From: Balanoglossus misakiensis
Taxonomy: Eukaryota > Animalia > Hemichordata
NCBI GenBank assembly: GCA_040954595.2
Contig: CM082596.2
Location: 9,568,461-9,632,460 of the forward strand
Length of the DNA stretch: 64,000 nt
Reading direction: 5' to 3'
Numbering within the stretch: position 1 is the stretch's first letter; every line of letters starts with the position of its first letter. A model generated the notes under the pieces. The model did no database searches, had not been told where the DNA came from, and was given only the letters and a program-made list of their open reading frames with translations. The translations under genes were made by a program, and so were the position numbers. Of the stretch, positions 4,601-56,205 are shown in pieces.

Positions 4601-5300
4601 TGTTACGTAAATATGCAACATGTCTAAAAAATATGTTTTTATAGAATATATTTATTTATTTAGAGTAAAATGTTTTTGGTGACATTTAAATATTTAGTGG
4701 ATGGTATTTTATACATCAATTGTGGGTTTCAACATATTGTTGGGAGTAGCACAAGAATCTTCAGTGGCCACATAGAATTAATTTTCAACCTTCAGTAAAA
4801 CCTGTCAAAACCAAACCCTGTCTAATCTGGAAACCTGTCTATACTGAACACCTTTTCAGTACCTTCGACATAGAATCACATGTTAAAAGAACCTTTACAA
4901 ACTGGAAATGTCTGTAAACTGAACAATTTCTTCAGTGCCTTCAGTGTTCGGTTCACACAGGTTTTACTGTATTTAATTTCTCACACTCCTGGCCGCTGGG
5001 AGTGTGGGATAGGATATCCCCGACGAGTGTGAGAAATACGATCTCAGGTCCTTGGGAGTGTGAGATTCTATTATTCTCACACTCTCACTGAATCGAAAGC
5101 TGTATATGACCCGAGCGCTGATTGGTTGACAAAGAGTTCTTTCTCTTCGCGCACTAAATGTTATCCAATGGCGCGATGTGTATTACAGGCACAGAACTAT
5201 AACGTGCCCCCAGACGATAGTTCCAGAGTCATTTATTCAATGTTTTAACGAATTTGGCTAATTTGTGACTGTGTGAGAAAAATAATCTCACACACCAAGG

Positions 5301-8300
5301 TATGGGGTGAGAACACCGCCAAAAATAGCTGATGTCTTTATTTGGTAGTTTTCTCATCATTATTATGCTATTATGTCATTATTTGGCCATTACCTTGGCC
5401 ATTATTATGCCGTTATTTGGTTCTTTGGTATTTATGTCATGGTCTCGACATTACCTCGACCATTACCTCGGCCATTATTTGGTTCGCTCGACATTACCTC
5501 GGTCATTATTATGCCGTTATTTGGTTATTTGGCCGTTATTATGTCATTTTTCAGTACTGATGTCTTTATTTGGAAGTTTTCTCATCATCATTATGCTATT
5601 ATGTCATTATTTGGCCATTATTTGGTTATTTGGTATTTATGTCGTGGTCTCGACATTACCTCGGCCATTATTTGGTTCGCTCGACATTATTTGACCTGCT
5701 TTATTATTTGAACTCTTGCTCGGTACCCAGAATTCATTGCACAAAATGGCGACGGTATGAAAGTTTCGCGGGCCGTGGCCGACGACAGTCTTGTAAACAG
5801 CACGCGTGGGTAAACAGTCAGGCCTCGAACTTAACGCCGGCCCACCGGCCCCGGGCCGGTAAATATTTATAGTGGGCTGGTTATTTTCACATCTTGTCGG
5901 CCCAATTGGGCCGGTGAATATACACAAATAAATCAGTAAAACATACTGCAGAATCAATATTCTATTGTAAAAGTTATATAGAAAGAAAGATTTCAAGAAA
6001 AAAAACAAAGTTTTGTGTCTTTATATGCCGTTTTTTCTTATTTTATCGAAGATATAATCGGCCGTCAACGCGCTGGCAGGGTTACGCGATTAAAGTTCAT
6101 TGATTGATATGTAAATTAGGAGAAGCCAACGTACGCGCGCGTTGGTGAACCCGACCTGACCCCTTCCACCCCATGCCCAGGCCATGCGCTCACTGCGTAA
6201 GCGTGTCTAAATATAGCTCGGATATATTTGTATAAATTACTGCTTTGTTCTTCTGAAGTTTGCCTGATAGAATAAAAATGCGTCTTAAAGTTTGGGTTTA
6301 CTAAAACTTAGAAGGAAGTTTGTAGTTAGTGTGCCATCAAAGTGGGAAAGGAAAGGAAAGACAAGGACACTGCCAGGAGTCTAATACATCAAAGATGGAC
6401 CAGAGAGCAGTGAATAATTCATGTATTTTGCCAGAACACCTATAGTCAGCACATGACATTACATACTTGAAAAGGGAAAATTTTTAAATCAAAACATTTC
6501 AGCTGATCCTGCTGATATTTTTTTTCAAAATAGATTTCTCTCATAACTTCTACTGGTGAACCGATTTTTTTTTTCAAAATGCATTTCTCATACCTTGCAC
6601 TGGTGCGATTTGATATAATACACAATAAATTCCATCACCAATATAGCAGTAAAACACGGGATACAAAATCTGAGATGTCTTAGGATGTTTTTGAACTAAT
6701 CCGTAACCATTTAGACACTCAATAGACACTCCGTTTAAATTTAGTATTAAAATTTGGCCCCACACACATAAATGGCCCACCACAAATATATTCTGTATTT
6801 TCCCCAGGATGACCAAATTCAGAATTTCAGTTTCAGATCTATTATTCTTAGAAAATGGTTACGGATTAGTTTTGAAAAAAAATATCAGCAGGATCAGCTG
6901 AAATGTTTTGATTTAAAAATTTTCCCTTTTCAAGTATGTAATGTCATGTGCTGACTATAGGTGTTCTGGCAAAATACATGAATTATTCACTGCTCTCTGG
7001 TCCATCTTGGATGTATTAGACTCCTGGCAGTGTCCTTGTCTTTCCTTTCCTTTCCTTTCCCACTTTGATGGCACACTAAGTACAAACTTCCTTCTAAGTT
7101 TTAGTAAACCCAAACTTTAAGACTCATTTTTATTCTATCAGGCAAACTTCAGAAGAACAAAGCAGTAATTTATACAAATATATCCGAGCTATATTTAGAC
7201 ACGCTTACGGAGTGAGCGCATGGCCTGGGCATGGGGTGGAAGGGGTCAGGTCGGGTTCACCAACGCGCGCGTACGTTGGCTTCTCCTAATTTACATATCA
7301 ATCAATGAACTTTAATCGCGTAACCCTGCCAGCGCGTTGACGGCCGATTATATCTTCGATAAAATAAGAAAAAACGGCATATAAAGACACAAAACTTTGT
7401 TTTTTTTCTTGAAATCTTTCTTTCTATATAACTTTTACAATAGAATATTGATTCTGCAGTATGTTTTACTGATTTATTTGTGTATATTCACCGGCCCAAT
7501 TGGGCCGACAAGATGTGAAAATAACCAGCCCACTATAAATATTTACCGGCCCGGGGCCGGTGGGCCGGCGTTAAGTTCGAGGCCTGACTGTTCACCCACG
7601 CGTGCTGTTGACAAGACTGTCGTCGGCCACGGCCCGCGAAACTTTCATACCGTCGCCATTTTGTGCAATGAATTCTGGGTACCGAGCAAGAGTTCAAATA
7701 ATAAAGCAGGTCAAATAATGTCGAGCGAACCAAATAATGGCCGAGGTAATGTCGAGACCACGACATAAATACCAAATAACCAAATAATGGCCAAATAATG
7801 ACATAATAGCATAATGATGATGAGAAAACTTCCAAATAAAGACATCAGTACTGAAAAATGACATAATAACGGCCAAATAACCAAATAACGGCATAATAAT
7901 GACCGAGGTAATGTCGAGCGAACCAAATAATGGCCGAGGTAATGGTCGAGGTAATGTCGAGACCACGACATAAATAGCAAATAACCAAATAATGGCCAAA
8001 TAATGACATAATAGCATAATGATGATGAGAAAACTTCCAAATAAAGACATCAGTACTGAAAAATGACATAATAACGGCCAAATAACCAAATAACGGCATA
8101 ATAATGACCGAGGTAATGTCGAGCGAACCAAATAATGGCCGAGGTAATGGTCGAGGTAATGTCGAGACCATGACATAAATACCAAAGAACCAAATAACGG
8201 CATAATAATGGCCAAGGTAATGGCCAAATAATGACATAATAGCATAATAATGATGAGAAAACTACCAAATAAAGACATCAGCTATTTTTGGCGGTGTTCT

Positions 8301-8309
8301 CACCCCATA
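5301..8309. mobile_element. Foldback/TU-like element: inverted arms 5301-6530 and 6870-8309, 339-bp loop, CCAAGG duplication
   Basis: Arms are near-identical reverse complements. The outer domain is tandem repeats (one extra 205-bp unit in the right arm). ccaagg at 5295-5300 and 8310-8315; the paralogous empty site near 29284 has a single copy. Confidence 0.92.
5330..5695 (+). repeat. Complex minisatellite (~205-228 bp units of CATTATTTGG/CATTACCTCG subunits), left arm
   Basis: Direct reading; mirrored at 7710-8280. Confidence 0.9.
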
Positions 8310-8578
8310 CCAAGGACCTGGGATCGTATTTCTCACACTCGTCGGGGATATTTTGTCCCACACTCGCCTGCGGCTCGTGTGGGAGAGAAAATCCCCAACT
8401 CGTGTGAGAAATACGATCCCAGGTCCCTGGGAGTGTGAGATTCTATTAATCCCAAATGTCATAGCAGCTGCCCCTTTAAAACAATTTCTTTAAAAAATGT
8501 GTTTCTAATAGATTTGGTCAGGTGGAAAAGTATGTCACATACTGTTTTCACTGAACACTGATGTGGTTGCAATTTTAT

Positions 8579-10017: not shown

Positions 10018-11097
10018 TTTATTGACACAAATTAAATCACACTATGCATCACATTAGACTTAGGGGTAAACCATTTTATATTTAGGAGAGTGCAGTTTAG
10101 TTTCTACTCTGCCTATTCTCTGATGTTTTTTCTTTACTATTTGGCAGAGGCAAAATGCAGACTAGTTATGGAAGTGTTCCTAAGTAACTATGCATAAATT
10201 ATTTCTATTAATCTAAGCACAACATGTAAAATATAAATCAACCAGGTAGACTCATGTCTCCCCCTACAGTAATAGTGACAATTCCTTTTATAGTACCCAA
10301 CTTACTCAAGTAAACACACGTGATGTTAGCAAACAGTCCTACAGGTATAGCCTGGACCCCTGTCCCATTCCTGCTGCTGGTAGTGACAGCAGGGTTAGAA
10401 AGTGGGCAGAGAACAAGAGTATCTTACAGGCCTCTTTCATGACCCCTGTGTGACCTTACATCCTGGTGGTTTGTAGGTATGACATCATTCATCATTCAAT
10501 GTTGAACAGCTAACCTTTTCTAACAGGCAATGTTCACCAGTTTTGTTCAAGGATGAGAAAAAATGCATTGATTCAATAGCATGGTTGGTAAACTCGAAAT
10601 TGTATACTCACACCGACAAAAAGCCAGGATGTAGAGGTCAAAAGGGGTCATAAAAGTGGCATGATATAGCACAGTTGCCAGTGGTGTAATGTTTATATGA
10701 ACTGTGCAACTTCATTCATATTTCTTAGTGGCAGTAATGTTATTATAAATATAAACTGACATCTGAAATCACTTTGCGATGTCGAAATTCAGTGGGAAGA
10801 AACAAACGCCAAAAGTTACCACATTTTATACTGACACTTACATGTATTTGTTTTGTACAGTTTACCCTATGGATCCAGCTATCATAGGAATAGGTGCAAT
10901 AATTGTAGCTTTGGTGGGCTGGTTGATCGCTTATGGGCTTGATCAATCATCCCATCTAGGCTACAATTATTGCAGATATCATAGGAAGGGCACATTGGGA
11001 ACACCCCCCTCCCCCCCCCCCCCCCTCACACACACACACAATTTGGGTGACAACACAATATATATATGATGCAGTCTACAAGTTGCACCCAAATATC

Positions 11098-13998: not shown

Positions 13999-14041
<43 letters not shown>

Positions 14042-14549
14042 CAAGAGATCAATGGGCAAACACTGACTGACCGGTGACCCATAAGCTGCCAATGGCATAT
14101 GTACTATACATACACTATATAGAACAGCTGGCCTCTTTAAAACTTAGCCAGTTATGTAATCATTCAGGAATTTCCTGTGTATATAAACAACTCAATAAAG
14201 TAAATACACACCACTTCGCAAAGCAATCTGACCAGTAGTTCTTGAGTTACTGAGTTTTGACTAAATTCACATTTTTCCAGCTAATTTGCATATTTTTGGC
14301 AACGACAACTTCATTTGAACAAACTCCCATCTACAGCCCAGCCTGCATCTGCACACCAAATATCAAGGTGATACACACAGTGGTTTTCAAGTTTTTGATG
14401 TGGACGGACATACATCCACACATCCATACAATGATACATCCATCCATACATACATACATACAGACGAGACCAATCCCATAAGGTCCCATGGTATATAGGC
14501 CTATACCAATGGGACCTAAAAAGGGCAGCGAGAGAGAGACTTTGTCCCT
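13603..14549. mobile_element. Kolobok-like non-autonomous element (TTAA TSD) with nested repeats
   Basis: ttaa|AGGGACAAAttctctctctcgctgccc ... gggcagcgagagagagacTTTGTCCCT|ttaa. Confidence 0.75.
13918..14140 (+). repeat. Dispersed repeat with (CA)n tract; inverted copy 28868-29050
   Basis: aagaaaaagtctacaccggagtac..(CA)n..gctgccaatggcat matches the reverse complement at 28.9 kb. Confidence 0.8.
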
Positions 14550-15140: not shown

Positions 15141-15594
15141 TATTCTGTTGAGCTATACATGCAATCTAGTCTGATCAGAGATGATTATATCATCGACAAT
15201 AGATCCTGGATACTAAAAGAGCATAAAATGACTGCGACAGATACCTTGTTAGTTGTAACAGGTGTGAAATAAGAATTTGGATAACACTGACAGTATTTTG
15301 GCTATTGTTGGGGGGGGGGGGGGGTGGAGCAATAAGTGATTTTGAAACCCCATGTAACACCTGTCTTACCATTAATATGACTGCATTTATGGTACCATAA
15401 GGAATGCTAACAAAATGACTGGGGAACCCTGGTTACATTACCCTGATCACCACAATGGTTCAGTCCAACTGCATTGTTTTCTACGTTAAGGTTGGAGCTC
15501 TGAAGAGGAAATTGGGGTGGAAGGGTTAAAAAAAAACACTGACTGACAATACTGCCAATCACGAAATATTGTTTTATCTTCTTTTTGTATACCG

Positions 15595-15714
15595 CACACC
15601 AATACAGAAACATTGTATATTGATCTGAACTCTCCTCCATATCCCTTGCCAAGTCAAGATAGTATTAATTACAGTGGAGTTACTGCAGAACAATTGGCTG
15701 CCATGTTGGGTGAG
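15595..15714 (+). pseudogene. MED25: MED25 VWA exon A, copy 1 (acceptor AG>CG, 1-bp deletion)
   Basis: tataccg here vs catacag in copy 2; atctgaac vs atctgcaac; 120 bp vs 121 bp. Confidence 0.85.
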
Positions 15715-16134
15715 GTAAGTAAGCGATGTAAAACATTTCATACAACACTGCATACTAACAATAGTCATATCAACCTGACAAGGGAAGATGAAAAAAAAAT
15801 ACTAAGCCCCTTTGAACAGCTGTATTTTCTTGGAATCTGGTTTTATAATAAACTTTGATTGATTGAAATGTGTTTTACATCTAAATGCATCGTTTTGGGA
15901 ACATTTTCTAGTATGTATGTGATTATTAAATTGAACTTGTATATTTGCTGGGGCAACTAAATTTTCAGTAAAGATGAGGAATGCCCAATGTTCGGATTGT
16001 CTTCAAAAAGATGACAACAACTCAAGTCCCAAAAACTCTTTTGTTTTAAAGTTTGAATTGTAGTTGTCGCATCATTAACGACTTCACATGTGAATGCCAA
16101 ATTTCGATTCTTAGCAAATGTTGTATTTTCACAG

Positions 16135-16288
16135 AGAGGAGTCCATTTCTCAATCATATCACCCCGCAAACTGCCTGAACTCCAAAAACTTAACTTCAAA
16201 GCATATGGTGAAGTACAGATGGTACCAATGAAGGATTATGCGGCTGATCCACACCACATGATACTTCTCAAAGGTTATCAACTTGCAG
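16135..16288 (+). pseudogene. MED25: MED25 VWA exon B, copy 1 (open)
   Basis: ttttcacag acceptor, gtaggt donor; RGVHFSIISPRKLPELQKLNFKAYGEVQMVPMKDYAADPHHMILLKGYQL. Confidence 0.9.
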
Positions 16289-16831
16289 GTAGGTATCTGT
16301 TGCTACGCAAATATTTGCAATCATACCATGATCTAGATTCTAAAGTTCACTGGTCAAATATATAACTTGTTTACATGGTCATTTACAACCAATTCATCAT
16401 TTTGTGGTTTGTTAAGATTTTCATTACTCTAAATTGGTACTTCAATAAAATGGTTGTAATATATTTATTAATATTTATTACACATCACGTATTATTATGC
16501 GCTCCTGGTTGGCTAATACTAAATATGACAGAAATTCATGACCTGTGCACACGATCTGAGGCTTATGGAAGTTATTGTCGTGAGTGATGCAGTGTATTCT
16601 GTTGCAGTACTTTCGCAAGCCAGCCTATTATTCCCCATCATTTCATTGCATGGCCAATTAATTACACATCCTCCTGAAAATTGTTGGAAGGTGGGCAATC
16701 AATTTCCATGGTCACATCCTGGATGAAACACTGGTACAGGTTCAAGACAAGTTTAGTGACATTGTGTGAATCCACAGCAGAATTTCACATAAACTGTATA
16801 ATCCTCCATTTTTGTAATGATTGTGTTTTAG

Positions 16832-18223
16832 AAAAATCTGTGTCAAGTGGTGATACAAAAGAGGTTGCCATAGTGAAACCTACAACCATAGTAACCACTT
16901 CAGTGTCTACAACCACTACCACAACACAGCCACTGAAACCTGCAAACAGTTACCATGGTTACAAGGGCCTAGCTCTGGTATGACCTCAAATCCTCTTAAA
17001 TCAACTGTTGGAAGTTCATCTCCAGGTAAAGTCTCCAGTGTTGCTTCCCAGCCATTGTCAAATTAAGTCCACACACAATTAGACCACCAAGTGTAGTGTG
17101 AGATATAGTAGAATTATTAAGAGTATTGCCGTGTTGATCTTCAGTACAATATGAGTTAAAGTTATATAGCACTTTGTGATCAGAAACTGACTCAACCAAG
17201 TCAACCCCAGATGCAGGGCCAAGGTAGAGGATATTGGTGCAGTTAGTGAAATATGAGAATGCAAAATTTAAGTGTAGCGTAACAGCTGTCTCCTTTGATA
17301 TGCGAACATTTCCTGTCACAGAAATTTTCCGTTTTACAGTATATAAATAAATCAACTAGATATTTTTACTGCAGGTGCCACACCAAGTCATCTGTCACCT
17401 GGACAACCAAGTCAAATTGGAAGTCCGTCTCCACAACATCTGTCATCCTCTCAACAGAAACTGAGTCAGTCCCAGATGCAGGGCCAAGGTCAAAGGTCAT
17501 CAATGCCTTTTGCCCAGCCTACCAGTTTACCAAACCAACCAGTATCCACTGTCACAGCAAACAGGACACAACAACCCAATGTGACTGTTTCAAGTATCCC
17601 CATGAGACAATTTTGTCCACCCAGGTACAGTTGTGGTCTACCTTCTACTTTATGAGATTCAAATTAGCTGTTTCTAGTTACCCATCCTGTGAATTGAAAG
17701 CTTTTTATGACTGTTTCACATAGCCTTGTGTTACCATTTTCTATACAGTAAACTATTATTTCAAAACACATTCAAAACTTCTGTTTTGGTTGCTAGAAAC
17801 CCACTCTGTGAATGCAAAGACTCTTTTGGATAATGCCAGAGACTCAGTGATCAATTTCAATTTTTAATGAGATTAATGTTGATAAGCTCTAATGTGGGTA
17901 TGTGTGTTGAAAATAGGACTTTGAGAGTTGCAAGCTCAACATCGAATCAAAAATTGAAGTCATGAATTTAAAATGGGGTTTTGAATACTGGCCTTGATAA
18001 TGCTTCATATTAAGTAGGTTTGTTACTCTTTTTGGACAGGCAACTTCACCACCAAAGATGACTTCCCAGCATGCACCAGCTGCTGCACTGAAAGCCACAG
18101 AGGGTGTCATGCAAATGGCAAATGCTAGTCAGTTCAGTAAGGCACCACCAATTGCTGCTGTGAATTCTATCAACTCACAGCCACAGCAGAGATGGCCAGG
18201 TACAGATTCACAGCCACAAAGAG
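16832..18223 (+). pseudogene. MED25: MED25 S/T/P/Q-rich linker exons C (16832-17025, frameshifted), D (17375-17624), E (18040-18223), copy 1
   Basis: AG/GT-bounded low-complexity coding blocks directly after the VWA exons; exon E APAAALKATEGVMQMA loosely resembles the MED25 AAQxAVEAAK segment. Confidence 0.7.
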
Positions 18224-19820
18224 GTAGGTACAGTCAAACCTGTCTATACTGGCCAGTCAAGGGACTTCCAAAACTGACATTTATAGACAGGTGGCTTCTA
18301 TAGACAGGTCAATAAATGTGCAATGTACATGTACATGAAATGAAACAAAGTTGCCACTACATAGAGGTTGCCACAAACACATAGTTGACTGTCATATATG
18401 TTATGTTGCCATGGCAGTCATTTACCATGAGTTCGATTATACATTGCCAAAACCGGAGGAAAAAAATATTCAAGTTCCCCTTTTCATATTCTCCATCAAT
18501 GGTATAATACGCCAGTGTCATGACCACACACAACTTCCACCCTGCTTGTAGCCACGAGAGTGAAAAAACCTCACCAATATGAACAATCGGTCTCTATCAT
18601 TTATTCATTTTGGGCGAGTTCTTATGCTCATATCATTCAAGCGGGATGGAAATTGTGTATGGTTGAACATTCATTCACTACATATACATATGTACATTAA
18701 TATAAAATGTCTCTTGTATCAAACATAATGGAAAAAAGGGCAGCGAGAGAGAGACTTTGTCCCTTTAATAGAAATGTGCATGTAATATTTTATTCAAACC
18801 ATCACTTCTGTCTTGAACAATCTTTCCTTAATAGAGTGGTGTACTGATTAGAGAGATGTCTTATTGACAGGTTTCACTGTATTACCAACATTTTCAGTTC
18901 CATAATCCTTCAGTGTTTGCCAGAGAATTTGACAGCAGTCAAAAACTTTCTCTGCCATACTCACAATAAGAGAAAGCTTGCACCTGTGTTTTACTGTTAA
19001 ATTACCATACCACAAAAAAACAGGTTGTTTTTGCGAGCAATAAATTTTTCGCGAAATATGCGAGAACCAACAAACGTGAAAATAAAAAGTCGCGTAAAAT
19101 GTTTTTCGGAGATAAAGATGCAATGAAATACGAGAATGTGAAAATTAATCCTCGCGTAACAGTTTGGTCTTTTAATGTCGCGAAAAATTTCCTTTCATGA
19201 AAATAATCTGTTTTACAGTCCGGTAATATTGAAGGTCAGAATGCTTTTGATGAGAGAACAATACACCAGTTGCAAAGTATCTTGACAAACATGAAATGAT
19301 TGAATTCTCCGAAGAAGATATAATCTCGCAGTTGGTGTGTTGTTTCCTCATCAAAAGCATTCTGACCTTCAATATTATTCTGTTGAGCTATAGATGCAAT
19401 CTAGTCTATATATGTTCAGAGGTGATTATATCATCCATAATAGATCCTAAATACTAAAAGAGCATAAAATGACTGCGACAGATACTTTGTAAGTTGTAAC
19501 AGGTGGGAAATAAGAATTTGGATAACACAGTATTTTGGCTATTGTTGGGGAGCATGAATAAGTGATTTTGGAACCCCATGTAACACCTGTCTTACCATAA
19601 ATATGACTGCATTGATGGTACCATGAGGAATGCTAGTAAAATGACTGGGGAACCCTGGTTACATTACCCTGATCATCACTATGGTTCAGTCCAACAGCAT
19701 TGTTTTCTATGTTAAGGTTGGACCTCTGAAGAGGAAATTGGGGTGGAAGGGTAAGAAAAAACACTGACTGACAATACTGCCAATAACGAAATATTGTTTT
19801 TCTCTTCTCTTTGCATACAG

Positions 19821-19941
19821 CACACAAGAACAGAAACCTTGTATATTGATCTGCAACTCTCCTCCACATCCCTTGCCAAGTCAAGATAGTATTAATTACA
19901 GTGGATTGACTGCAGATCAATTGACTGCCATGTTGGGTGAG
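19821..19941 (+). pseudogene. MED25: MED25 VWA exon A, copy 2 (open, 121 bp)
   Basis: ttgcatacag acceptor, gtaagt donor; TQEQKPCILICNSPPHPLPSQDSINYSGLTADQLTAMLGE. Confidence 0.9.
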
Positions 19942-20384
19942 GTAAGTAAGCGATGTAAAACATTTCATACAACACTGCCTACTAACAATAGTCATATCAA
20001 TCTGACAAGGGAAGATGAAAACAAAACATCTTTTCAAACTAGCTTACTGTGCGGACCAATTTCATTAAGCCCCATTTAACAGGAATTCTGGTTTTATAAT
20101 TAACTTTGATTGATTGACATGTGTTTTACATCTAAATGCATCGCTTTGGGAACATTTTCTAGTATGTATGAGATTATTAAATTGAACTTGTATATTTGCT
20201 GAGGGCAACTAAATTTTCAGTAAAGATGAGGAATGCTCAATGTTTTGATTGTCTTCAAAATGATGACAACAACTCAAGTCTCAAAAACTCTTTGTTTTGA
20301 ATTTTGAATTGTTTTTGTTGCATCAGTAACGACTTCACATGTGGATGCCACATTTGATTCTTAGCAAATGTTGTATTTTGACAG

Positions 20385-20533
20385 AGAGGAGTCCATTCCT
20401 CAATCATATCACCCCGCAAACGGCCTGAACTCCAAAAACTTAGCGACAAAGCGTAAAATACAGATGGTACCAATGAAGGATTATGCGGCTGATCCACACC
20501 ACATGATACTTCTCAAAGGTTATCAACTTGCTG
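20385..20533 (+). pseudogene. MED25: MED25 VWA exon B, copy 2 (5 bp shorter, frameshift/stop)
   Basis: RGVHSSIISPRKRPELQKLSDKA* ; 149 bp vs 154 bp in copy 1. Confidence 0.85.
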
Positions 20534-21233
20534 GTAGGTATCTGTTGCTATGCAAATATTTGCAATCATACCATCCAGATTATAAAGTTCACAGGTCAAA
20601 TATATAACTTGTTTACGTGGCCATTTACAACCAATTCATCATTTTGTGGTTTGTTAAGATTTTCATTACTCTAAATTGGTACTTCCATAAAATGGTTGTA
20701 ATATTTATTACACATCACGTATTGTTATGCGCTCCTGGTTGGCTAATACTAAATATGACAGAACTTCATGACCTCTGCACACGATCTGAGGCTTATGGAA
20801 GTTATTGTCGCGAGTGATGCAGTGTATTCTGTTGCAGTACTTTCACAAGCCAGCCTATTATTTCCCATCGTGTCAATGCCTGGCCAATTAATTACACATC
20901 CTCCTGAAAATTGTTGGTAGGTGGGCAATCAATTTCCTTGGTTACATCCTGGATGAAACACTGGTACAGGTTCAAGGCAAGTTTAGTGACATTTTGTGAT
21001 TCCACATCAGAATTTCACATCAACTGTATAATCCTCCATTTTTGTGTTTCAGAAAAATCGGTGTCCAGTGGTGATACAAAAGAGGTTGCCATAGTAAAAC
21101 CTACAACCATAGCAACCACTTCAGTGTCTACAACCACTACCACAACACAGCCACTGAAACCCGCATCAACAGTTACCATATTGTTTACAGCATCTAACTC
21201 CAGTATGACCTCAAATCCTCTTAAATCAACTGT

Positions 21234-21694
21234 TAGTCTCGGTTACCCAGACGCCTTTGCTTCTTCCGATGCTCTCCAGAAAAGGGTCTGGGGAAATGCT
21301 ATTGAAAGCTTTGTAAAACAAAATGGCCGATGTCAGGATTTTGATCATCACCTGATTGGCTGAGCTGTCAGTATGATTGACCCGGGTCACTGACTCTCAA
21401 CAATGTGTGATTTTTTGTCCTCTCTTCATATCAAGAGACCGGTACTTGTTGGTTGATGCGAAAGGCAAAAGGCGTCCTCTGTAGCATTGTTGGAGAAATT
21501 ATACGAAATATCTTTGGTAGACGATTGTCGAAACTATTGCGGTGACCTGGGTCATACTGACAGCTCAGCCAATCAGGCGATGATCAAAATCCTGACATCG
21601 GCCATTTTGTTTTACAAAGCTTTCAATAGCATTTCCCCAGACCCTTTTCTGGAGAGCATCGGAAGAAGCAAAGGCGTCTGGGTAACCGAGACTA
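21234..21694. mobile_element. MITE with ~150-bp TIRs, TAG...CTA termini and 9-bp TSD (AcademH- or MULE-type)
   Basis: atcaactgt at 21225-21233 and 21695-21703; single atcaactgt at the empty paralogous site near 17000. Confidence 0.92.
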
Positions 21695-22039
21695 ATCAAC
21701 TGTTGGAAGTTCATCCCCAGGTAAAGTCTCCAGTGTTGCTTCCCAGCCATTGTCAATTTAAGTCCGCGCATAATTAGACCACCAAGTGAAGTGTGAGATA
21801 TAGTAGAATATTGCCATGTTGATCTTCACTACAATATTAGTTAAAGTTATATAGCACTCTGTGATCAACGAGTTGAAAATACAGCATGAGTTTTCGGGGA
21901 CATGTAGTCCCCTTCATCAGATGCACACGTGGAATGAACAGAGAAACAGAGAATCATGGGGTATTCAAAGTAGGAAATATGTGCAGGACCAGGTGCATCA
22001 GAAATATTTCCTGCAGTGGATTTTCTATCTGAGGATGGT

Positions 22040-22140
22040 GACTTCATGACTGGAATATTGTGTTCGTGAGCAAGGCACTTTACTTCTCATTGCTCTGAGG
22101 AGACTCATGGCTTTGTGTAGGTGATTTGCACCTTTTCTAG
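22040..22140 (+). mobile_element. Possible SINE core fragment
   Basis: gtgagcaaggcacttta motif typical of tRNA-derived SINE bodies; no A/B boxes seen. Confidence 0.3.
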
Positions 22141-23760
22141 TCTTTCTACTAGACATATTTTCTGTGTTTGTGATAGATGAATTACTGTCTTACAGGAAAT
22201 TTTTGTGATCTTCGTGAGAACCAAAAAATGCGAATTAAAAAGTCATGTAAAAATATTTTTCAGGGATATTGGTGCAGTTAGTGAAATATGAGAATGCGAA
22301 ATTTAATTGTAGCATAACAGCTGTCTCTTAGGATTATGCGAACATTTCCTGTCACAGAAATTTTCTGTTTTACAGTATATAAATAAATCAAGTAGATCTT
22401 TTTACTGCAGATGCTACACCAACAATTCATCTGTTACCTGGACGACCAAGTCAAATTGGAAGTCAGTCTCCACAACAACTATCGTCCTCTCAACAGAAAC
22501 TGATTCAACCAAGTCAGCCCCAGATGCAGGGCCAAGGTCAAAGGTCATCAATGCCTTTTGCCCAGCCTACCAGTTTACCAAACCAACCAGTATCCACTGT
22601 CACAGCAAACAGGACTCAACAACCCAATGTGACTGTTTCAAGTATCCCCATGAGACAATTTTGTCCACCCAGGTACAGTTGTGGTCTACCTTCTACTTTA
22701 TGAGATTCAAATTAGCTGTTTCTAGTTACCCATCCTGTGAATTGAAAGCTTTTTATGACTGTATCGCATAGCCTTGTCTTACCATTGTCTACACAGTAGA
22801 CTATTTATTTTCAAAACACATTCAAAACTTCTGTTTTGGTTGCAAAAAAGCCACTCTGTAAATGGAAAGACTCTTTGGATAATGCCACAGACTCATTAAT
22901 CAAATTCAATTTTTAATGTGATTAATGTTGATAAGCCCTAAAACCTGATCCCTTCCAAATGTGAGTATGTGTGTTGAAAATAGGACTTTGAGAGTTGTAA
23001 GCTCAACATCGAAGTCATGAATTAAAAAATGTGGTTTTGAATACTGGCCTTGATAATGCTTCATATTAACTAGGTTTGTTACTCTTTTTGGACAGGCAAC
23101 TTCACCACCAAAGATGACTTCCCAGCATGTGCCAGCTGCTGCACTGAAAGCCACAGAGGGTGTCATGCAAATGGCAAATGCTAGTCAGTTCAGTTAGATG
23201 CCACAAATTGCTGCTGTGAATTCTATCAACTCACAGCCACAGCAGAGATGGCCAGGTACAGATTCAAAGCCACAACGAGGTAGGTACAGTCAAACCTGTC
23301 TACAGTGGCCAGTCAAGGGACTTTCCTAAACTGGCATTTATAGACAGGTGGCTTCTATAGATAGGTCAGTTAATGTGCAATGTACATGTACATGAAATGA
23401 AACAAAGTTGCCACTATAATAGAGGTGGCCACAAACACAGATTTGACTGTCATATATGTTATGTTGCCATGGCAGTCATTTACCATTAGTTTGAATATAC
23501 TTTGCCAAAACCTGAGGAAAAAATATTCAAGTTCCCCTTTTCATATTCCCCTATCAATGGTATAATACAACAGTGTCATGGTAAAATTTTGTGACATTTT
23601 TGCTAACTGCTAAAGCCCAAGTAACATTGTTTTTTTCAGTATTTTTCAGCGAAGGAATTAACCCTAGTTTCTTGTTCTGCTATGGATAGCTTTATGAAAT
23701 GTTCAGTCTTTAGCTTCTATACAAAACTTGTACATGAGTAATGGCCATTGTGAATATTAA

Positions 23761-27326: not shown

Positions 27327-28864
27327 GGGAGCCGTCATTATTTACGGCCTGGGGGGGGGGGGGTCGGAGGAATTACACTAGAAACTCCAAAATTTTGAGA
27401 AACCCCCCCTGCCAAGCATGCAGATTTTGAGAAACCCCCCCTTCCAACACAGAAATTTCGACTGCCCCCCCCCTAAAACCGGAACAACTACATATCAATA
27501 CATGTATCTGTATTGAACACCTATTGCCTGGCCATGAGGGCCATAGTGGCCGTTTATTACACCCGAGGGGTTGTGAGTTACCAGAATCATATGCTTTTTC
27601 CCGAGGCCGCAGGCCGAGGGAAATAGCATATGATTCTGGTAACTCACAGTCACGAGGGGGTAAAAACGGCTGCTATGGCCCGAATATAGGCCAGGCTATA
27701 GGTGTTTTATAATAAACCTCATGCTAACAGCTGGGAAAATCTTGCAATTTTCTCTTGAGGTTGGCAGACGACATCTTCAGCGGTGGCCATTGTGTCAGAT
27801 GACGCGACACCGATTGACGTGACCGAGTCTGCGCACTATTATAATGATAAAAATCATTATAATATACCTCATGCTAATACTGTGCCGTGATTCGCCAGAA
27901 TCCGTCACGTGATAGGAAAATAGAATCGACTATGAACCGCTAGGGAAATAGCAGAAAAAATATAAACCGGTCACGTGACCAACGTGGTCACGTCAATCAG
28001 CGTCGCGTCGTCTGACACAATGGCCACCGCTGAAGATGTCGTCCTGCCAGCCTCAAGAGAAAATTGCAAGATTTTCCCAACTGTTAGGATGAGGTTTATT
28101 ATAAAAACACCTATAGCCTGGCCTATATTCGGGCCATAGCAGCCGTTTTTACCCCCTCGTGACTGTAAGTTACCAGATTCATATGCTATTTCCCTCGGCC
28201 TGCGGCCTCGGGAAATAGCATATGATTCTGGTAACTCACAGCCCCTCGGGTGTAATAAACGGCCGCTATGGCCCTCATGGCCAGGCAATAGGTGTTCACT
28301 ATTAAAGTAGTGTAGTAAAAGACCTTCCTACTCCAGGTTCACCCTGCTACATTGTAGGTGATCATCAGTTGCATCATGATGGATTGAAAAGGGTGAAACA
28401 ACAAAACAATCTCAAAGTCACAACTAAATAATGATTACCGTAAAAGCTCACCCATAACCAGTAACCATCAAGTAGCATTGTGTAATTTGGACAGGCATCG
28501 TTAAAAGTCAAAATGATTATCAAACTTTGTTGATATAATAAGGAGTAATGTTATTTATGCATGATCAGGCAAGCATGCCAATCCTTTATCAGCAAATTTT
28601 GGGAAAAATACTTTGATAGTGCAGTGTGGACACTCTGGTGTTCCGCGACCAGAGGTCGCGGAGCGCTGCAGCACTTGCACAGCACACAACTAAATCTTTC
28701 AGTTGAAAAACTTTGATACATTTCCCAAAAATGAGTGACCCCCCTCTTCATCTACAATTTTTGAGAAACCCCCCCCTGCAGCCTTCCAATTTTTGAGAAA
28801 CCCCCCCCCCCCTTGATTCCTCCGACCCCCCCCCCCCCCCAGGCCATAAATAATGACGGCTCCC
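27327..28864. mobile_element. PIF/Harbinger-type MITE (TAA TSD), host of the family 2 pair
   Basis: taa|GGGAGCCGTCATTATTTACGGCCT ... AGGCCATAAATAATGACGGCTCCC|taa; subterminal ttttgagaaaccccccc repeats. Confidence 0.85.
27514..28298. mobile_element. Two head-to-head copies of hairpin-terminated element family 2 (27514-27845 minus, internally shortened; 27856-28298 plus)
   Basis: ~200-bp imperfect palindromes centred on cccgaggccgcaggccgaggg; internal IR cctcatgct...agcatgagg. Confidence 0.85.
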
Positions 28865-29048: not shown

Positions 29049-29478
29049 ATTTCTTACACTCATCAGGGATATTTTGGCTTGTCTAACACGAGCTAAAAAT
29101 ATCCCCAACTCGTCTGAGAAATCTTATACCAGGTCCTAAGGTTGTGAGACTAATAGAATCTCACACTCCCAAGGACTTGGGATCATATTTCTCACATGTG
29201 TTGAGGATTTTCTGTCCCAAACAAGCTGCAGGCGAGTGTGGGACAAAATATCCCTGACGAGTGTGAGAAATATGATCCCAGGTCCTTGGTGTGTGAGATT
29301 ATATTTCTCACACGGCCACAAATTAGCCAAATTCGTTTTAAAACATTAAATAAATGACTCTTGAACTGTCATCTGGCACGTTGTAGTTTCTGTATCATAG
29401 GATAACATTTAGCTTTGTCATCCAATCTGAATCAGCGCTCGTGTCATATACAGCTTTTGATTCAGTGAGAATGTGTGA
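29049..29478 (-). mobile_element. Hairpin-terminated element family 1, second locus (body + hairpin + adjacent partial hairpin)
   Basis: Reverse-complement similarity to 5090-5300 and 8316-8447. Confidence 0.8.
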
Positions 29479-29479
29479 T

Positions 29480-46800: not shown

Positions 46801-49800
46801 TGTGGCAAAATGGCACGTCACTGTGGCGACATAAGGTATGGGTAGAACGTTTTTCTCTGGAAAGTCTCTTTGCTGGTGGACGGAACGATAGTTCCATACG
46901 TATAGTCTTTGTTTAGCGGAAGGTCAGGAAACCACGGTATTTTTCCATACATAATTCCATACGTTCTTTGAGGTTTTTATATGAGTCACCTCGGTGTTTG
47001 CAGGTGTTTTTTTTTTTAATTTTACGGTTTAAACGTGGTTGGTGTATTTTCGCTTTTCTGGTGAGATTTCCACCTCTCCGTTGGCATACTTAAAAAATTA
47101 TCCTAATTTTTATTGGGAAAACCGATAAAACCAAAACCACAACTAAAGAAAATGTCTTAAACATTTTAACTTAGGCATTGTAATTTGTTTGGTGATAACC
47201 CTTTTAGCTTTGAGAGATAACCGATTTGATGTTTTAGTATAAGCCAATTTTTTGACCAGGGCGACAAGGATTTTTTCTCCTAGAGTCGTGTTGCTTGGAA
47301 GCATACTTTTGTATGTGTGGTCCCAGTTGATGAAAACCTGGTTGATGAAAAATGTGCATATTTATAATTTTGTAGCAATTTTTGCCATTTTTGGTCAAAA
47401 ATTGTTTCGTCTAAAACCGCTTGTGAGATTGCTTTCAAATTTGGTAGGCTTGTTCCTTGGGGATAATCAAATGAGATGTTTAAAAAAAATACTTGAAATT
47501 TACATATTTGCGTTTTGTGTGTGAAAGTTGTGGAATTTTTCATCAAAAATTATTTTCTTTCAAACTGCATGTCAGATCGCCTTGAGCTTTGGTAGGCATG
47601 TTCCCTGAAGCGATTGAAGTAAGATATTATACAATTTTGGAGAAAATACTGATTTTTCTGAAACTGCATATGGGATTGCTTTGAAATTTGATAGGAATAT
47701 TCCAATGGGTAACCCAAGTTTTGTCTGATTGTGTTGATTACCCTATACTGAGACTCACTAAGTACACTATATGTTTATATTACTAGGGAGTTCAGAATCC
47801 AATATGGCCACCATTCAAAGTGGGACATGCTGTATAATCTGATTGATTTCTAAACTTGTCATATTTTAATTTCTCGGTCTTGCAAATAAAAATAAAATGC
47901 CAAAAACTGAGTAACTTTCGTTTCTTCCCGCTTGTTAACGTCATATGTTGGTGTTGTCCATTACAACGATTATCATCTAAGCGTCCCGAAACACTGATAA
48001 GAACTCCAATATAATTAGCCAGAGTAAACTGAGATTTTTATGCTGAAGTCGGCATATGGTCTTTTTCCTCCTACTGGGAAAGTGGCTAGAGTCAATCAGT
48101 GCATAATGGCAGCATTACATGGCACTGAATAAATGGCTGGGGTATTTACATCTCTGTATTTTTTCACTTAAACCATTATAAATCTCTAATAGTATATTAT
48201 AATATTGTGTATGCAACTTGGAGATGCGTTTTACTTCAGAGTTGGAAGTATTTTTTAGTAAAGTCTGGGAAGTGACATGTCTTCAAAGTGATTGATGTTA
48301 TCTGCTAAGAGCTGAATGCCCATGGGTGTTCTTTCCTAGATTTTACATTTTCTTAGCATTTCATAGACCTGTGTATAATTATAATTTCAGTTATATATTC
48401 TAATTTGAGTTTAGGAAGGGTATGCATGGAATTAAAGTAATTATTCTGTAATTACCCAACCAAATATGTTGTCTAACTAATGGATATTTTGATTGTCAAT
48501 TTGCACAGGCAACATTATTGAAGTAGCATTAAGAGTAGTTGATAATATAGCAGAGCTTCTAACTGGAAAGAAGAGCTTAGTAAATTTATCAGCTCATAAT
48601 ATTCCTTTTACCAATGAACTTTATATGAACTTGCACACCTGCGTTAAAGATACAGGGATTAATGTTCAGGAAACCTTACCAGCTCTAGTAAATTTATTTG
48701 AGCCAGAAATTGAATTACCAAAAAAAAATCAGTAATTTCATAAAGACACAGTCAGAAAAGAAACATAGAAAGCCAGCAAGGAAGGGAGAAAAGTGGAATA
48801 CATGAACGACACAGTTTGCTTAAAATACGTGTGTGTGCTGTAAAAACTGTATGGTGCAACGGCGTCAATTTTTATGATTTATAAGCAGCCAGTCTTTCCA
48901 TGCATATCATACCAAAATTTAATATGAAATTCTTGTTAATGTTAATAGTCTACAAGGATAGTACAGGTAACATGTTGAAATTAAACTATCAAACTTTCTC
49001 CACTTTTGATATCCGCTCGACACAGGCAAGCAAAAGGGCCAATCTGAGACTATGACTTGAATGATGGCAATTTTTGCTGTCCAGAAGTAACTGTATAGCA
49101 TTTATTTGGTAGTAATATCAGCTTTATGATTGCTAAAAATACATCAGAATTTAAATATTTCCACTTACTACAGTGATTGAACTGATTTTCAGCAAATTGC
49201 AGTGTATAAACAAATATTGCCATCTAATGAAATGTCAACCCAATTAAGGCCGCCTATTTGCAATGGTAAAATGCTAGGTTTACCATATTTGAGCGCCTGG
49301 GAATTTAAATTATAATCCAGATATCAAAAACTTAAGTCACTATCTGTATCTGCACATATATTGTAATATAATCTGAAAATTTCGTGAAAATTAGATCAAA
49401 CATGATCGAGACACAGAAGATCAGACATTGCAAATTTTCATATTTTACCATGGTGCCATGCAAAAAATAGAGAGATTTTTTTTACAAGTTTAGATGATCT
49501 CCTGTAAAACTGAAAGAAGTAATCTTCTGTGAATCTTGCATTTTTATGTTGGAACCATGCAAACCACTTTGGCCCCTGCAATGCAGCATGTTGCTTTAAT
49601 TGTCTTCTTCATGGTTGCCATATTGGATTTTTTGGAGATGCGTTTCACTTCAGAGTTTGAAGTTTTTTTTAGTAAAGTCTGGGAAGTGACATGTCTTCAA
49701 AGTGACTGATGTTATCTGCTAAGAGCTGAATGCCCATGGGTGTTCTTTCCTAGATTTTACATTTTCTTAGCATTTCATAGACCTGTTTATAATTATAATT

Positions 49801-50775: not shown

Positions 50776-51212
50776 ATTATAATATACCTCATGCTAATAC
50801 TGTGCCGTGATTCGCCAGAATCCGTCACGTGATAGGAAAATAGAATCGACTATGAACCGTTAGGGAAATAGCAGAAAAAATATAAACTGGTCACATGACA
50901 AACGTGGTCACGTCAATCAGCGTCGCGTCTGACACAATGGCCACCGCTGAAGATGTCGTCTGCCAACCTCAAGAGAAAATTGCATGATTTTCCAAACTGT
51001 CAGCATGAGGTTTATTATAAAACACCTATAGCCTGGCCTATATTCGGGCCATAGCAGCCGTTTTTACCCCCACGTGGCTGTGAGTTACCAGAATCATACG
51101 CTATTTCCCTTGGCCTACAGCCTCGGGAAATAGAATGTGATTCTGGTAACTCACAACCCCTCCGGTGTAATAAACGGCCGCTATGGCCCTCATGGCCAGG
51201 CAATAGGTGTTC
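50776..51212 (+). mobile_element. Hairpin-terminated element family 2, full copy inserted in a tandem-array unit without TSD
   Basis: Sister units read attgtaatataatctg; here attgt[attataatatacc...ggtgttc]aatataatctg. Confidence 0.9.
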
Positions 51213-54200
51213 AATATAATCTGGAAATTTCGTGAAAATTAGATAAAACATGATTGAGACACGGAACATCAAACATTGCAAATTTTCATATCTTACCATG
51301 GTGCCATGCAAAAAATAGAGAGATTTTTTTACAAGTTTAGATGATCTCCTGTAAAACTGAAAGAAGTAATCTTCTGTGAATCTTGCATTTTTATGTTGGA
51401 ACCATGTTAACCGCTTTGGTCCCTCAAATGCTGCTTTTAGTAAATGTTTTAATTGTCTTCTTCATGGCGGCCATATTGGATTTTTGGATAACCTTTAAAA
51501 GTTGACATTTTTTTCAAAAACTACAGGGCCAATCAAGTTCTAATTTACTGTGCGGTTCAATGTTTGACAATAATATCATTAGTGGTCATGTGGCTTTGGA
51601 TTTTTGAAAAAATATCATTAAAAAATTTCAAAAATCTATTTCTAATCAAGTTTTCAAGTAAATTGTGATTGGGTAAACCTTATTGAAGCCAAATTGGATT
51701 TTCTGATCTCCAATAAAAGACTAAAATTTCCTATTTCTAGCCTGCTCATTGAAACCACACAAATTCTTTTTATGGATATGAGTCACCATATGACCAGAAT
51801 ATATCACAATTATTAGACTACTTTCACATGTTCTTTGATCAAGTTTTTACAGAACTTGATTAAACAATGTGTTTGCGACTCTCGCATGTCCTTTGATCCA
51901 GTAATTCCAGAACTTATTTTATGTGGATATGCCTCTTGTTAAAAAGCACAACAGTCATGATTTTGTTCACATGAGTACTGCTGCTGCCAGGAAATAACCA
52001 AAATATTTTGCTTATTATGGCAATGACCTTTGATCTACTTTTCCATAAGTTGGCATGCACAGCAGATACAGTCTTCAAATTTGGAGGACTGAAACAACTA
52101 ATGAAGTATTAAACCTTAACACAATAATTTTGTACATAAGCTATTTCAAGTAAACAAATGGAGCTTACAAGTCTGGTTTTTGTTGGACACTGATCAGTTT
52201 AAGATCAAAAATTTGTGTCACAATTTTGCGTGACCTCTGGCTTACTTTACCATTTCTTGGCATCCACAACAAAACAGCCTTTGCTTTCTGTTGGAACCAT
52301 GCTAACCGCTTGGGCCTGTCCCATTTCTTCTTAATGGTGGCCATATTGGATATTCTGATAACCCTTAAAAATTGACATCTTTTCAACAACTACAAGGCAA
52401 ATCAAGTTCTAATTTACTGTGCGGTTCAATGTTTGACAACAATATCATTAGTGGTCATGTCACTTTGGTTGCCATATTGGATTTTTGAAAAATCTCATGA
52501 AAAATTTCACAAATCTTTTTCTAATCAAGTTTTCAAGTAAATTGTGATTGGGTAAACCTTATTGAGCCAAATTGGATTTTCTGATCTCCGATAAAAGACT
52601 AATATTTCCTATTTCTAGCCTGCTAATAGAAACCACACAAATTCTTTTTATGGATATGAGTCACCATATGACCAGAATATATCACAATTATTAGACTACT
52701 TTCACATGTTCTTTGATCAAGTTTTTACAGAACTTGATTTAAACAATTTATTTGCGACTCTCGCTTGTCCTTTGATCCAGTTATTCCAGAACTTATTTTA
52801 TGTGGATATGCCTCTTGTTAAAAAGCACAGCAGTCATGATTTTGTTCACACGAGTACTACTGCTGCCAGGACAAAACCCAAATCTTTTGATAATTTTGGC
52901 AATGACCTTTGATCTACTATCCCATGCCTTGGAATGTACAGCAGATACAGCCTTCAAATTTGGTGGACTGGAACACCTAATGAAGTATTAAACTTTAACA
53001 CAATAATTATGTACATAAGCTATTTCAAGTTAACCAATAGAGCTTAGAAGTCTGGTTTTTTGTTGGACACTGATCAGATTGATATCAAATTTTGTTAGCA
53101 CAATTTTGCATGACCTCTGGCTTACTTTACCATTTCTTGGCATCCACAACAGAAACAGCCTTTGCTTTCTTTTGGAACCATGCTTACCACTTTGGTCCCT
53201 CCAATGCAGCATGTTGCTTTAATTGTCTTCTTCATGGTTGCCATATTGGATTTTTTGGAGATGCGTTTAACGTCAGAGTTGGAAGTATTTTTAGTAAAGT
53301 CTGGGAAGTGACATGTCTTCAAAGTGACTGATGTTATCTGCTAAGAGCTGAATGCCCATGGGTGTTCTTTCCTAGATTTTACATTTTCTTAGCATTTTAT
53401 AGACCTGTGTATAACTATAATTTTAGTTATATATTCTAATTTGAGTTTAGGTAGAGTATGCATGGAATTATAGTTATTATTCTGTAATTACCCAACCAAA
53501 TATGTTGTCTAACTAATGGATATTTTGATTGTCAATTTGCACAGGCAACATTATTGAAGTAGCATTGAGAGTAGTTGTTAATATAGCAGAGCTTCTAACT
53601 GGAAAGAAGAGCTTAGTAAATTTATCAGCTCATAATATTCCTTTAACCAATGAACTTTATATGAACTTGCACACCTGCGTTAAAGATACAGGGATTAATT
53701 TTCAGGAAACCTTACCAGCTCTAGTACAATTTTTGGAGCCAGAAATTGAATCCCCCCCCCAAAAAAAAATAAAAAAATAAAAAAAAATAAAAAATAATAG
53801 TAATTTTATAAAGACACAGTCAGAAAAAAAACAGAGAAAGCCAGCAAGGAAGGGAGAAAAGTGGAATACATGAAAGGCACAGTTTGCTTAAAATACGTGT
53901 GTATGCAGTAAAACTGTATGGTGCAACGGCGTCCATTTTTATGATTTATAGCCAGCCAGTCTTTCCATGCATATCATACCAGAATTTAATATGAAATTCT
54001 TGTTAATGTTAATAGTCTACAAGGATAGTACAGGTAACATGTAGAAATTAAACTATCCAACTTTCTCCACTTTTGATATCTGCTCGACACAGGCAAGCAA
54101 AAGGGCCGATCTGAGACTTTGACTTGAATGATGGCAATTTTTGCTGTCCAGAAGCAACTGTATAACATTTTTTTGATAGTAATATCAGCTTTATGATTGC

Positions 54201-56074: not shown

Positions 56075-56205
56075 TCAAATCAAATCAATCAAGCAAAAAA
56101 GTTTATATAGCGCCAAAATCCAAAAAGAAATTTTGCCCAATGACGCTCACGGTTAAACCACACTGTATGCTCTTTCGAACATATGAGTTTTCATATGATT
56201 TTTTT
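56075..56205 (-). mobile_element. Extreme 3' end of an L2-type LINE with AACAAAA TSD (duplicated at ~60377-60507)
   Basis: Minus strand KTHMFERAYSVV*, gcgctatataaa and (GATTT)n tail; absent from sister array units. Confidence 0.75.

What the first reader, a model, noticed from the sequence alone, without database searches (positions are those of the whole stretch)
27514..28298. Two unrelated element families share a strand-specific DNA hairpin with GCA triloop and periodic tandem GA/GA mismatches: candidate ssDNA (attC-like) recombination sites
Seen: the family 2 hairpin centre reads CCC-GA-GGCC-GCA-GGCC-GA-GGG (27600-27620). Further GA/GA oppositions occur outward (cccGAgggg/cacGAgggg; catGAgggcc/ggcccGAata). 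Family 1 (8316-8447, 29157-29300) has no obvious sequence similarity, yet on the equivalent strand reads CACAC-GA-GCC-GCA-GGC-GA-GTGTG plus a second GA/GA pair (cacacGAgttgg/ccgacGAgtgtg). In both families the GA strand is the bottom strand relative to body->hairpin. Established: d(GNA) triloops and tandem sheared G.A pairs stabilise DNA hairpins, whereas the complementary TC/TC strand gains nothing. Integron attC sites and IS200/IS605 ends are recognised as folded single strands. Inference: these mismatches are selected structure, not decay, and the elements move via a folded single strand, acted on by a tyrosine recombinase (Crypton-like) or an HUH nuclease.
Basis: partly seen in the sequence, partly recalled or inferred. 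Interest (0 to 1): 0.8.

Follow-up and report, generated by a model that had tools for sequence, protein, structure and literature searches.

The report
Transposons that fold one DNA strand
Two unrelated families of small, gene-less jumping DNA in an animal genome end in a long hairpin with G-A mismatches on one strand only, carry an internal mirror of their own joined ends and leave no target duplication, which suggests they likely move as a folded single DNA strand, probably cut by a Crypton-type recombinase that was not found in this window.

Summary
Family 2 (three copies) and family 1 have unrelated stems but share a C(GCA)G loop and tandem GA/GA mismatches on one strand. The spacing is not periodic, and the 29157 copy has lost its left-arm GAs.

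Both are high-copy, non-coding mobile elements of an animal genome. Three in-window empty sites show a precise insertion, with no target duplication and no terminal inverted repeats. In both families the hairpin is followed by a mirror of the other end, so the folded strand brings both ends together, with 1-2 extra bases at the joint (like the DIRS internal complementary region). Host bases 5' of the left end resemble the element's right end.

Best reading: non-autonomous Crypton-type elements whose tyrosine recombinase exchanges one folded strand (about 0.55). No autonomous partner was found here, so the enzyme is inferred; an HUH enzyme remains possible. The scan noted this design before: 15 findings in at least 9 genomes, mostly filed as CryptonA and unverified. 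The same 21-base cap is a bacterial REP-like repeat.

The parts
27514..27844 (+). Family 2 copy A (GA strand = +): left end, 195-nt hairpin, end mirror, part of body; rest of body and most of right end deleted or rearranged
   Evidence: the 13 nt at 27825-27837 also occur in other family contigs (loose ends at 27986)
27600..27620 (+). Hairpin cap of copy A: CCC-GA-GGCC-GCA-GGCC-GA-GGG
27707..27727 (+). Internal mirror of the right end, directly after the hairpin foot (with the hairpin's 3' arm it is the complement of the joined ends)
27845..27856 (.). Spacer between copies A and B; 27851-27856 are host bases kept from the empty site
   Evidence: joint 27513->28296 with AAA between
27857..28298 (-). 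Family 2 copy B, full length 442 nt (GA strand = -): left end 28298, hairpin 28104-28298, cap 28192-28212, mirror about 28084-28105, right end 27857
50777..51213 (-). Family 2 copy C, full length, decayed cap; precise insertion into a satellite-like unit
49329..49409 (.). Paralogous empty site for copy C (others at 54394-54474 and 56974-57054)
8312..8448 (-). Family 1 copy a, left end and hairpin with intact cap and two GA/GA pairs
5074..5298 (-). Family 1 copy a, mirror, body and right end, separated from its head by a 3-kb foldback insertion
4992..5073 (-). Family 1 copy c, joined head-to-tail to the right end of copy a (a genomic right-end/left-end joint); truncated, left arm has TC instead of GA
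29151..29479 (+). Family 1 copy b, full length, decayed left-arm GAs and right end
29049..29150 (-). Older, decayed family 1 hairpin in the opposite orientation; copy b starts at its end
27327..28864 (.). Host MITE with TIRs and TAA direct repeats, into which copies A and B are inserted

Best explanation
These are high-copy, non-coding mobile elements whose G.A-rich strand is predicted to fold so that both element ends pair side by side on an internal mirror, and they are likely non-autonomous Crypton-type transposons whose tyrosine recombinase, encoded elsewhere, would cut and rejoin only that folded strand. Shown: the architecture (left end - hairpin - mirror of right end - body - right end), 1-2 extra bases at the joined ends, precise insertion without TSD, and a one-sided target likeness to the right end. 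Inferred: (1) the GA strand folds when single-stranded or extruded, and the GNA loop and sheared GA/GA pairs bias folding to that strand; (2) cuts at flank/left end and right end/flank, whose 5' neighbours look alike, as expected if the catalytic monomers sit 5' of the cut (3'-phosphotyrosine chemistry, established for tyrosine recombinases); (3) one exchange releases a single-stranded circle while the other strand keeps the element; (4) the folded circle junction recombines with a target resembling the right end, and replication resolves the Holliday-type junction, as for integron attC x attI.
For: Design shared by two families with unrelated stems. Predicted DNA folding favours the GA strand: full F2B -120.8 vs -106.7 kcal/mol. 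Across 712 and 628 laid contigs of one sample, the only cap position varying at 2% or more is the loop middle (GCA to GTA, 14.6%/13.6% of depth). A single A.G and a G.T opposition show pair-restoring variants (16%/5%, 18%/16%), but none of 12 GA positions shows a change to TC. Joined ends match the mirror with 2 extra nt (F2C, F1) or 1 extra nt plus a G.T (F2B); both mirror lengths occur in the family (28103). Empty sites: copy C is precise in 3 of 3 paralogs. Bases -2 and -3 of the left flank equal those of the family's own right end in 5 of 5 non-tandem junctions, and -1 differs in all 5; the sixth junction is a head-to-tail joint. Loose ends put the right boundary at 27857 (12+8 contigs) but extend 4 nt past the left end (30+18 contigs). 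Literature: animal Cryptons lack terminal repeats, have abundant non-autonomous derivatives and occur in hemichordates, echinoderms and molluscs (PMC3212892). Active Cryptons target a sequence like their own terminus and gain copies despite excising (bioRxiv 2022.05.23.493040). A YR acting on one folded strand is established for integrons (PMC2727003).
Against: No autonomous partner found: 0 YR or HUH hits among 218 of 237 stop-free window segments of 62 aa or more; DUF3504 in 0 of 401 prokaryote genomes and 0 of 1 viral record. The Crypton link therefore rests on literature fit and on unverified earlier AI notes. GA positions vary at about the background rate in F2 (1 of 12 GA positions; 6 of 195 hairpin positions overall), so extra conservation is not shown, and no compensatory double change was seen. 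In F1 one GA position is G in only 55%/37% of depth. F1c has TC arms. In decayed F1a, F1b and F2C the predicted strand preference is small (3.7, 1.2 and 8.8 kcal/mol). The end and target grammar fits an IS200/IS605-type HUH enzyme as well (recalled).
Confidence: 0.55

Rival explanations
1. Same folded single-strand substrate, but the enzyme is an HUH nuclease: a Helitron2/Helentron-like Rep or an IS200/IS605-like Y1 transposase using the mirror as a DNA guide for the target.
For: Read body->hairpin, the layout resembles Helitron2: a terminal 5' inverted repeat starting with T and its partner immediately upstream of a 3' hairpin (PMC3627910). No TSD. A target motif 5' of one end that resembles the other end recalls IS608 (recalled).
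Against: The partner repeat lies 195 nt from the end, not 20-30 or 38-60 nt. The hairpin runs to within 2 nt of the terminus. The ends lack T runs, and the resolved target is A^A, not TT. In Helitron orientation the stabilised strand would be the bottom strand.
Confidence: 0.2
2. A Crypton-type YR moves a conventional double-stranded circle; the hairpin and mirror serve another single-strand step, such as restoring the ends, priming or ending copy synthesis, as the DIRS internal complementary region does.
For: The DIRS ICR is complementary to both ends and is essential downstream of first-strand synthesis (PMC7192593). The standard Crypton model of a short donor and a near-identical target fits observed insertions. 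Starships use circles (title only).
Against: Crossover homology is only 0-3 nt and the likeness to the target lies on one side. Extra bases at the joint in both families look like a recognition feature of a folded site.
Confidence: 0.15
3. The structure works at RNA level (non-autonomous DIRS-like retroelement or hairpin RNA).
For: An ICR-like mirror is known from DIRS retrotransposons. The GA strand is also the more stable one with RNA parameters.
Against: GNA triloop stability is a DNA property, and RNA counterparts are much weaker (PMC13037366). The two ends are not inverted repeats of each other as in DIRS. No Rfam match.
Confidence: 0.06
4. Ordinary palindromic MITEs whose mismatches are founder accidents or decay, moved by a DDE transposase.
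For: Young families conserve most positions by default.
Against: 5 of 5 tandem mismatches in F2B and F1a are GA/GA on the loop's GNA strand. No TIR or TSD. Among 120 hairpins with the same stems from metagenomes, 99 are Watson-Crick at those positions and 0 are GA/GA.
Confidence: 0.04

Closest known systems
CryptonA DNA transposons and non-autonomous derivatives (Kojima & Jurka 2011, PMC3212892: abstract, Results parts 1-2 of 3, supplement 1 read; Glomhopper PMC13465315 and Kojima 2018 PMC5753468: passages)
   Same: Animal, non-autonomous size range (353-709 bp there; about 330-440 here), no terminal repeats, no true TSD, target like one terminus.
   Different: The passages read describe no hairpin, GA/GA design or internal mirror ('hairpin' and 'palindrom' occur 0 times in PMC13465315). 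No YR ORF is linked to these two families here.
DIRS-1 internal complementary region (PMC7192593, passages)
   Same: An internal stretch complementary to the two joined ends; YR element with single-stranded DNA intermediates.
   Different: DIRS is a retroelement with inverted LTRs at both ends; here the ends are not inverted repeats of each other, one mirror half is a 95-bp hairpin arm, and the joint has extra bases.
Integron attC sites (PMC2727003, abstract and first part of Introduction)
   Same: Imperfect palindrome, predicted one-strand preference, extrahelical bases, minimal crossover homology.
   Different: attC strand choice depends on extrahelical bases and not on the terminal structure; here the site would form from the two element ends on a mirror, with GA/GA pairs and a conserved GNA tip. 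No R/L boxes were identified.
Helitron2 / Helentron / HINE (PMC3627910, PMC4067079, passages)
   Same: Asymmetric inverted repeat with partner just upstream of a terminal hairpin; no TSD.
   Different: Hairpin of 150-195 nt reaching the terminus, no T runs, target not TT.
Bacterial REP-like repeats of the Ssn-related type (PMC11893778, passages)
   Same: The identical 21-nt cap occurs as a dispersed repeat in Alphaproteobacteria and Acidobacteriota genomes: 48 of 49 unbiased matches have GA/GA and 41 of 49 a GNA loop. Similar repeats are cut as single-stranded hairpins by SsnA.
   Different: 28-nt repeats without long stem, body or mirror; most likely convergence. Membership in the published motif and a neighbouring ssnA were not tested.
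d(GNA) mini-hairpins and sheared GA-AG tandems (PMC13037366, PMC8163305, passages)
   Same: Only GNA triloops give the extra-stable DNA mini-hairpin; GA-AG steps stack strongly.
   Different: Measured on short oligos, not on these elements.

Membership tests
CryptonA | Autonomous partner encodes a DUF3504-type tyrosine recombinase and shares these ends | tested here: inconclusive
   None in window ORFs or searchable collections; no animal genome was searchable
CryptonA | No terminal inverted or direct repeats | tested here: met
   Ends differ; 0-3 nt shared with target
CryptonA | Target resembles one terminus, no true TSD | tested here: met
CryptonA | Terminal sequence similarity to named Repbase/Dfam Cryptons | not testable with these tools
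   No Repbase or Dfam library; the figure alignments of PMC5753468 are not held
Helitron2/Helentron | Asymmetric inverted repeat, 5' copy terminal, 3' copy upstream of hairpin | tested here: met
Helitron2/Helentron | 3' repeat 20-60 nt from the end with a short 5-10 bp palindrome | tested here: not met
   195 nt from the end, about 95-bp stem
Helitron2/Helentron | Insertion in TT or T-rich target, T runs at the ends | tested here: not met
   Copy C sits between A and A on that strand; copy B between A and C
Helitron2/Helentron | Rep/helicase partner | tested here: inconclusive
   None in window
DDE MITE | TIRs and TSD | tested here: not met
DIRS retroelement | Internal region complementary to both ends | tested here: met
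DIRS retroelement | Inverted terminal repeats at the two ends; RT and YR coding | tested here: not met
   Ends are not inverted copies; no coding
Integron attC | R'/R'' and L boxes, cassette array, IntI | tested here: not met
   No cassette ORFs or integrase in window; boxes not identified by eye
Folded single-strand substrate (any enzyme) | Strand-specific binding or cleavage | not testable with these tools
   Needs biochemistry

The most novel reading that the evidence does not exclude
Animal Crypton-type transposons move by a one-strand, copy-out recombination not described for eukaryotes: the element's own internal mirror splints its two ends into a recombinase site with extrahelical bases, may guide target choice by pairing, and GA/GA plus GNA motifs select the strand. 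It would be a eukaryotic counterpart of integron attC recombination.
Probability: 0.4. Interest if true: 0.85.

Novelty: new variant of a known kind. Interest (0 to 1): 0.6.

Why it matters
How Cryptons increase in copy number while excising is an open question. This architecture names a substrate (folded GA strand, ends on a mirror, 1-2 extra bases), a strand and a target rule, all testable with oligos and one recombinase. If right, eukaryotes have a tyrosine-recombinase route on folded single strands like bacterial integrons, and a structural signature would exist for classifying many unnamed palindromic repeats. The identical cap in bacterial repeats points to a convergent design for single-stranded DNA signals.

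Tried and rejected
No whole genome is held, so no genome-wide consensus or search for long copies was possible.

Pfam scan of 218 of 237 stop-free segments of 62 aa or more (19 left out as repeat copies): only MED25 exons passed. Rfam: 0 matches.

Viral scans: 0, 3, 0, 0, 77, 4 and 0 loci. None of those inspected had a long palindrome.

The single metagenome scan used an unbiased pattern and was swamped by bacterial terminator-like hairpins (120 of about 650 seen). It served only as a control. Three AT-rich hits with long palindromes (L052, L091, L108) could not be extended.

The genome scan returned bacterial repeats only. DUF3504 was found in 0 of 401 genomes; the controls did not ring, so this shows nothing about absence.

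No RNA holder was listed; this is not used as evidence. Runs X1 and X2 are one sample and may be the window's source; contig depth is not copy number.

'Periodic' spacing was rejected. A window-wide hairpin scan found 5 hairpins: 4 of these families and one at about 10934 without GA/GA; it missed decayed F1b.

Literature searches showed no paper, by listing, describing this design for Cryptons. Most listed papers were not opened, one search was too loose to count, and Repbase reports and subscription papers are not covered.

Full report
Setting. The window is 37-41% GC for most of its length, holds MED25 exons, MITEs and a satellite-like block, and so comes from an animal. Earlier notes on the same genome suggest an acorn worm (not tested). 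No whole genome was available.

Observation. The cited cap is at 27600-27620. The 27514-28298 span is two copies of family 2 lying right end to right end: a truncated copy A (+) and a full 442-nt copy B (-). A third copy C lies at 50777-51213. Each intact hairpin has three GA/GA tandems, two single G.A, several G.T, and no C.A, C.T or C.C oppositions on the GA strand. Family 1 has the same loop and two GA/GA tandems in copy a. Copy b has lost both left-arm GAs, and copy c has TC there. Spacing is 38, 29 and 25 nt, so it is not periodic. The motif class occurs 3 times in the window, only in these families.

Family-level variation. Contigs of runs X1 and X2 (one sample) show both families are abundant. 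On copy B, 712 and 628 contigs were laid. Besides two changes private to B, six hairpin positions vary at 2% or more of depth in X1 or X2. These are the loop middle (GCA to GTA, about 14%), a single A.G restored to C-G (16%/5%), a G.T restored to A-T (18%/16%), two pair-breaking changes, and one outer GA position (0.4%/4%, a CpG transition). No GA position changes to TC. This fits selection but does not prove it, because most positions are invariant anyway and no compensatory pair was seen. In family 1 the majority restores the outer GA (A in 85%/85%), but the inner left G is present in only 55%/37%; that table was cut by 74 rows.

Controls. Of 120 metagenome hairpins with the same stems and free letters at the GA and loop positions, 99 are Watson-Crick and 0 are GA/GA. 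One AT-rich hit, L108, has a decayed cap with a GTA loop and two outward GA/GA tandems, and may be a third family. In five bacterial genomes picked for having the cap, 48 of 49 matches have GA/GA and 41 of 49 a GNA loop. So the cap is a recurring design. Published data show that only GNA triloops give extra-stable DNA mini-hairpins, that RNA counterparts are weak (PMC13037366), and that GA-AG tandems stack strongly (PMC8163305).

Ends and targets. Copy C has three empty paralogs in the window: the insertion is precise, with one shared T and no duplication. The A+B composite has an empty site in one X1 contig. It places B at a 3-nt identity with the host and A at a site with none, 6 nt apart on opposite strands. 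The ends are not inverted repeats. The host bases before the left end resemble the family's own right end: -2 and -3 match in 5 of 5 non-tandem junctions, with different letters in the two families, and -1 differs in all 5. The sixth junction is a direct right-end/left-end joint at 5073/5074. Loose ends agree with a one-sided preference.

Mirror. Following a lead from earlier notes, I tested whether the joined ends match an internal stretch. They do in both families: the hairpin's 3' arm plus the next 9-21 nt is the reverse complement of right end + left end, with 2 extra nt at the joint, or 1 plus a G.T in B. Folding of full copy B pairs both ends this way and leaves the first two bases free, at -120.8 kcal/mol on the GA strand versus -106.7 on the other. 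This is the layout of the DIRS ICR (PMC7192593) without DIRS's inverted LTRs.

Mechanism (inferred). The folded GA strand presents left flank, left stem, right stem and right flank around one continuous mirror. One strand exchange would release a single-stranded circle and leave the element on the other strand, giving copy gain. The reverse reaction with a target resembling the right end would give a four-way junction resolved by replication, with no TSD, as in integrons (PMC2727003). Likeness of the two sequences 5' of the cuts fits tyrosine-recombinase polarity (own knowledge). It also fits IS200/IS605-type guide pairing (recalled), so the enzyme is not settled by sequence.

Enzyme. Animal Cryptons fit on ends, size and host range (PMC3212892), and active Cryptons target their own terminal motif and gain copies. 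Helitron2/Helentron fits the topology but fails on hairpin size, position and target. I found no partner ORF. Earlier AI notes report this design on DUF3504-encoding elements in other genomes and once in this one. I could not check that link, and one note favours Helitrons. I therefore file the elements as working like single-strand YR elements, with CryptonA membership likely but not shown.

Verdict. A real and non-random structure, a new variant of a known kind, already noted many times by this scan. This window adds clean empty sites and the same end grammar in two families, but not the enzyme. Interest 0.6.

Noticed in passing
window 5299-8311: A 3-kb foldback element with about 1-kb, 99% complementary arms containing a 205-nt tandem unit is inserted in family 1 copy a; the duplication at its ends can be read as 2 to 6 nt.
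   Followed up: partly
window 15547-18300 and 19768-23184: MED25 VWA exons and following exon-like ORFs appear twice, about 4.2-5 kb apart: a partial tandem duplication of the gene.
   Followed up: no
window 48200-64000: Satellite-like block of about 830-890-nt units interleaved with a longer repeat; holds copy C and its three empty sites. Earlier notes describe nested Helentron stacks in this genome; not tested here.
   Followed up: partly
window 27327-28864: MITE with TIRs and TAA direct repeats (Harbinger-like by recall), itself inside another repeat also found at about 14010-14150.
   Followed up: partly
window 10895-10974: Another long imperfect hairpin, single copy in the window, without GA/GA.
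   Followed up: partly
L124-L244, L322-L351: The family 2 cap is a dispersed REP-like repeat in Reyranella-like, Acidobacteriota and other bacterial genomes; neighbouring nuclease genes were not checked.
   Followed up: partly
L002:5001-5019; L245-L321: Isolated GA/GA-GNA mini-caps occur in phage contigs, including AT-rich ones and a four-copy tandem in L273; possible single-strand signals.
   Followed up: no
L108, L052, L091: AT-rich metagenome contigs with long palindromes and decayed caps; L108 has two outward GA/GA tandems.
   Followed up: partly
window 27982-27983 (loose ends): Contigs in X1, X2 and X3 leave the family 2 body here for the same different sequence: a longer or sister element worth fetching.
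   Followed up: no
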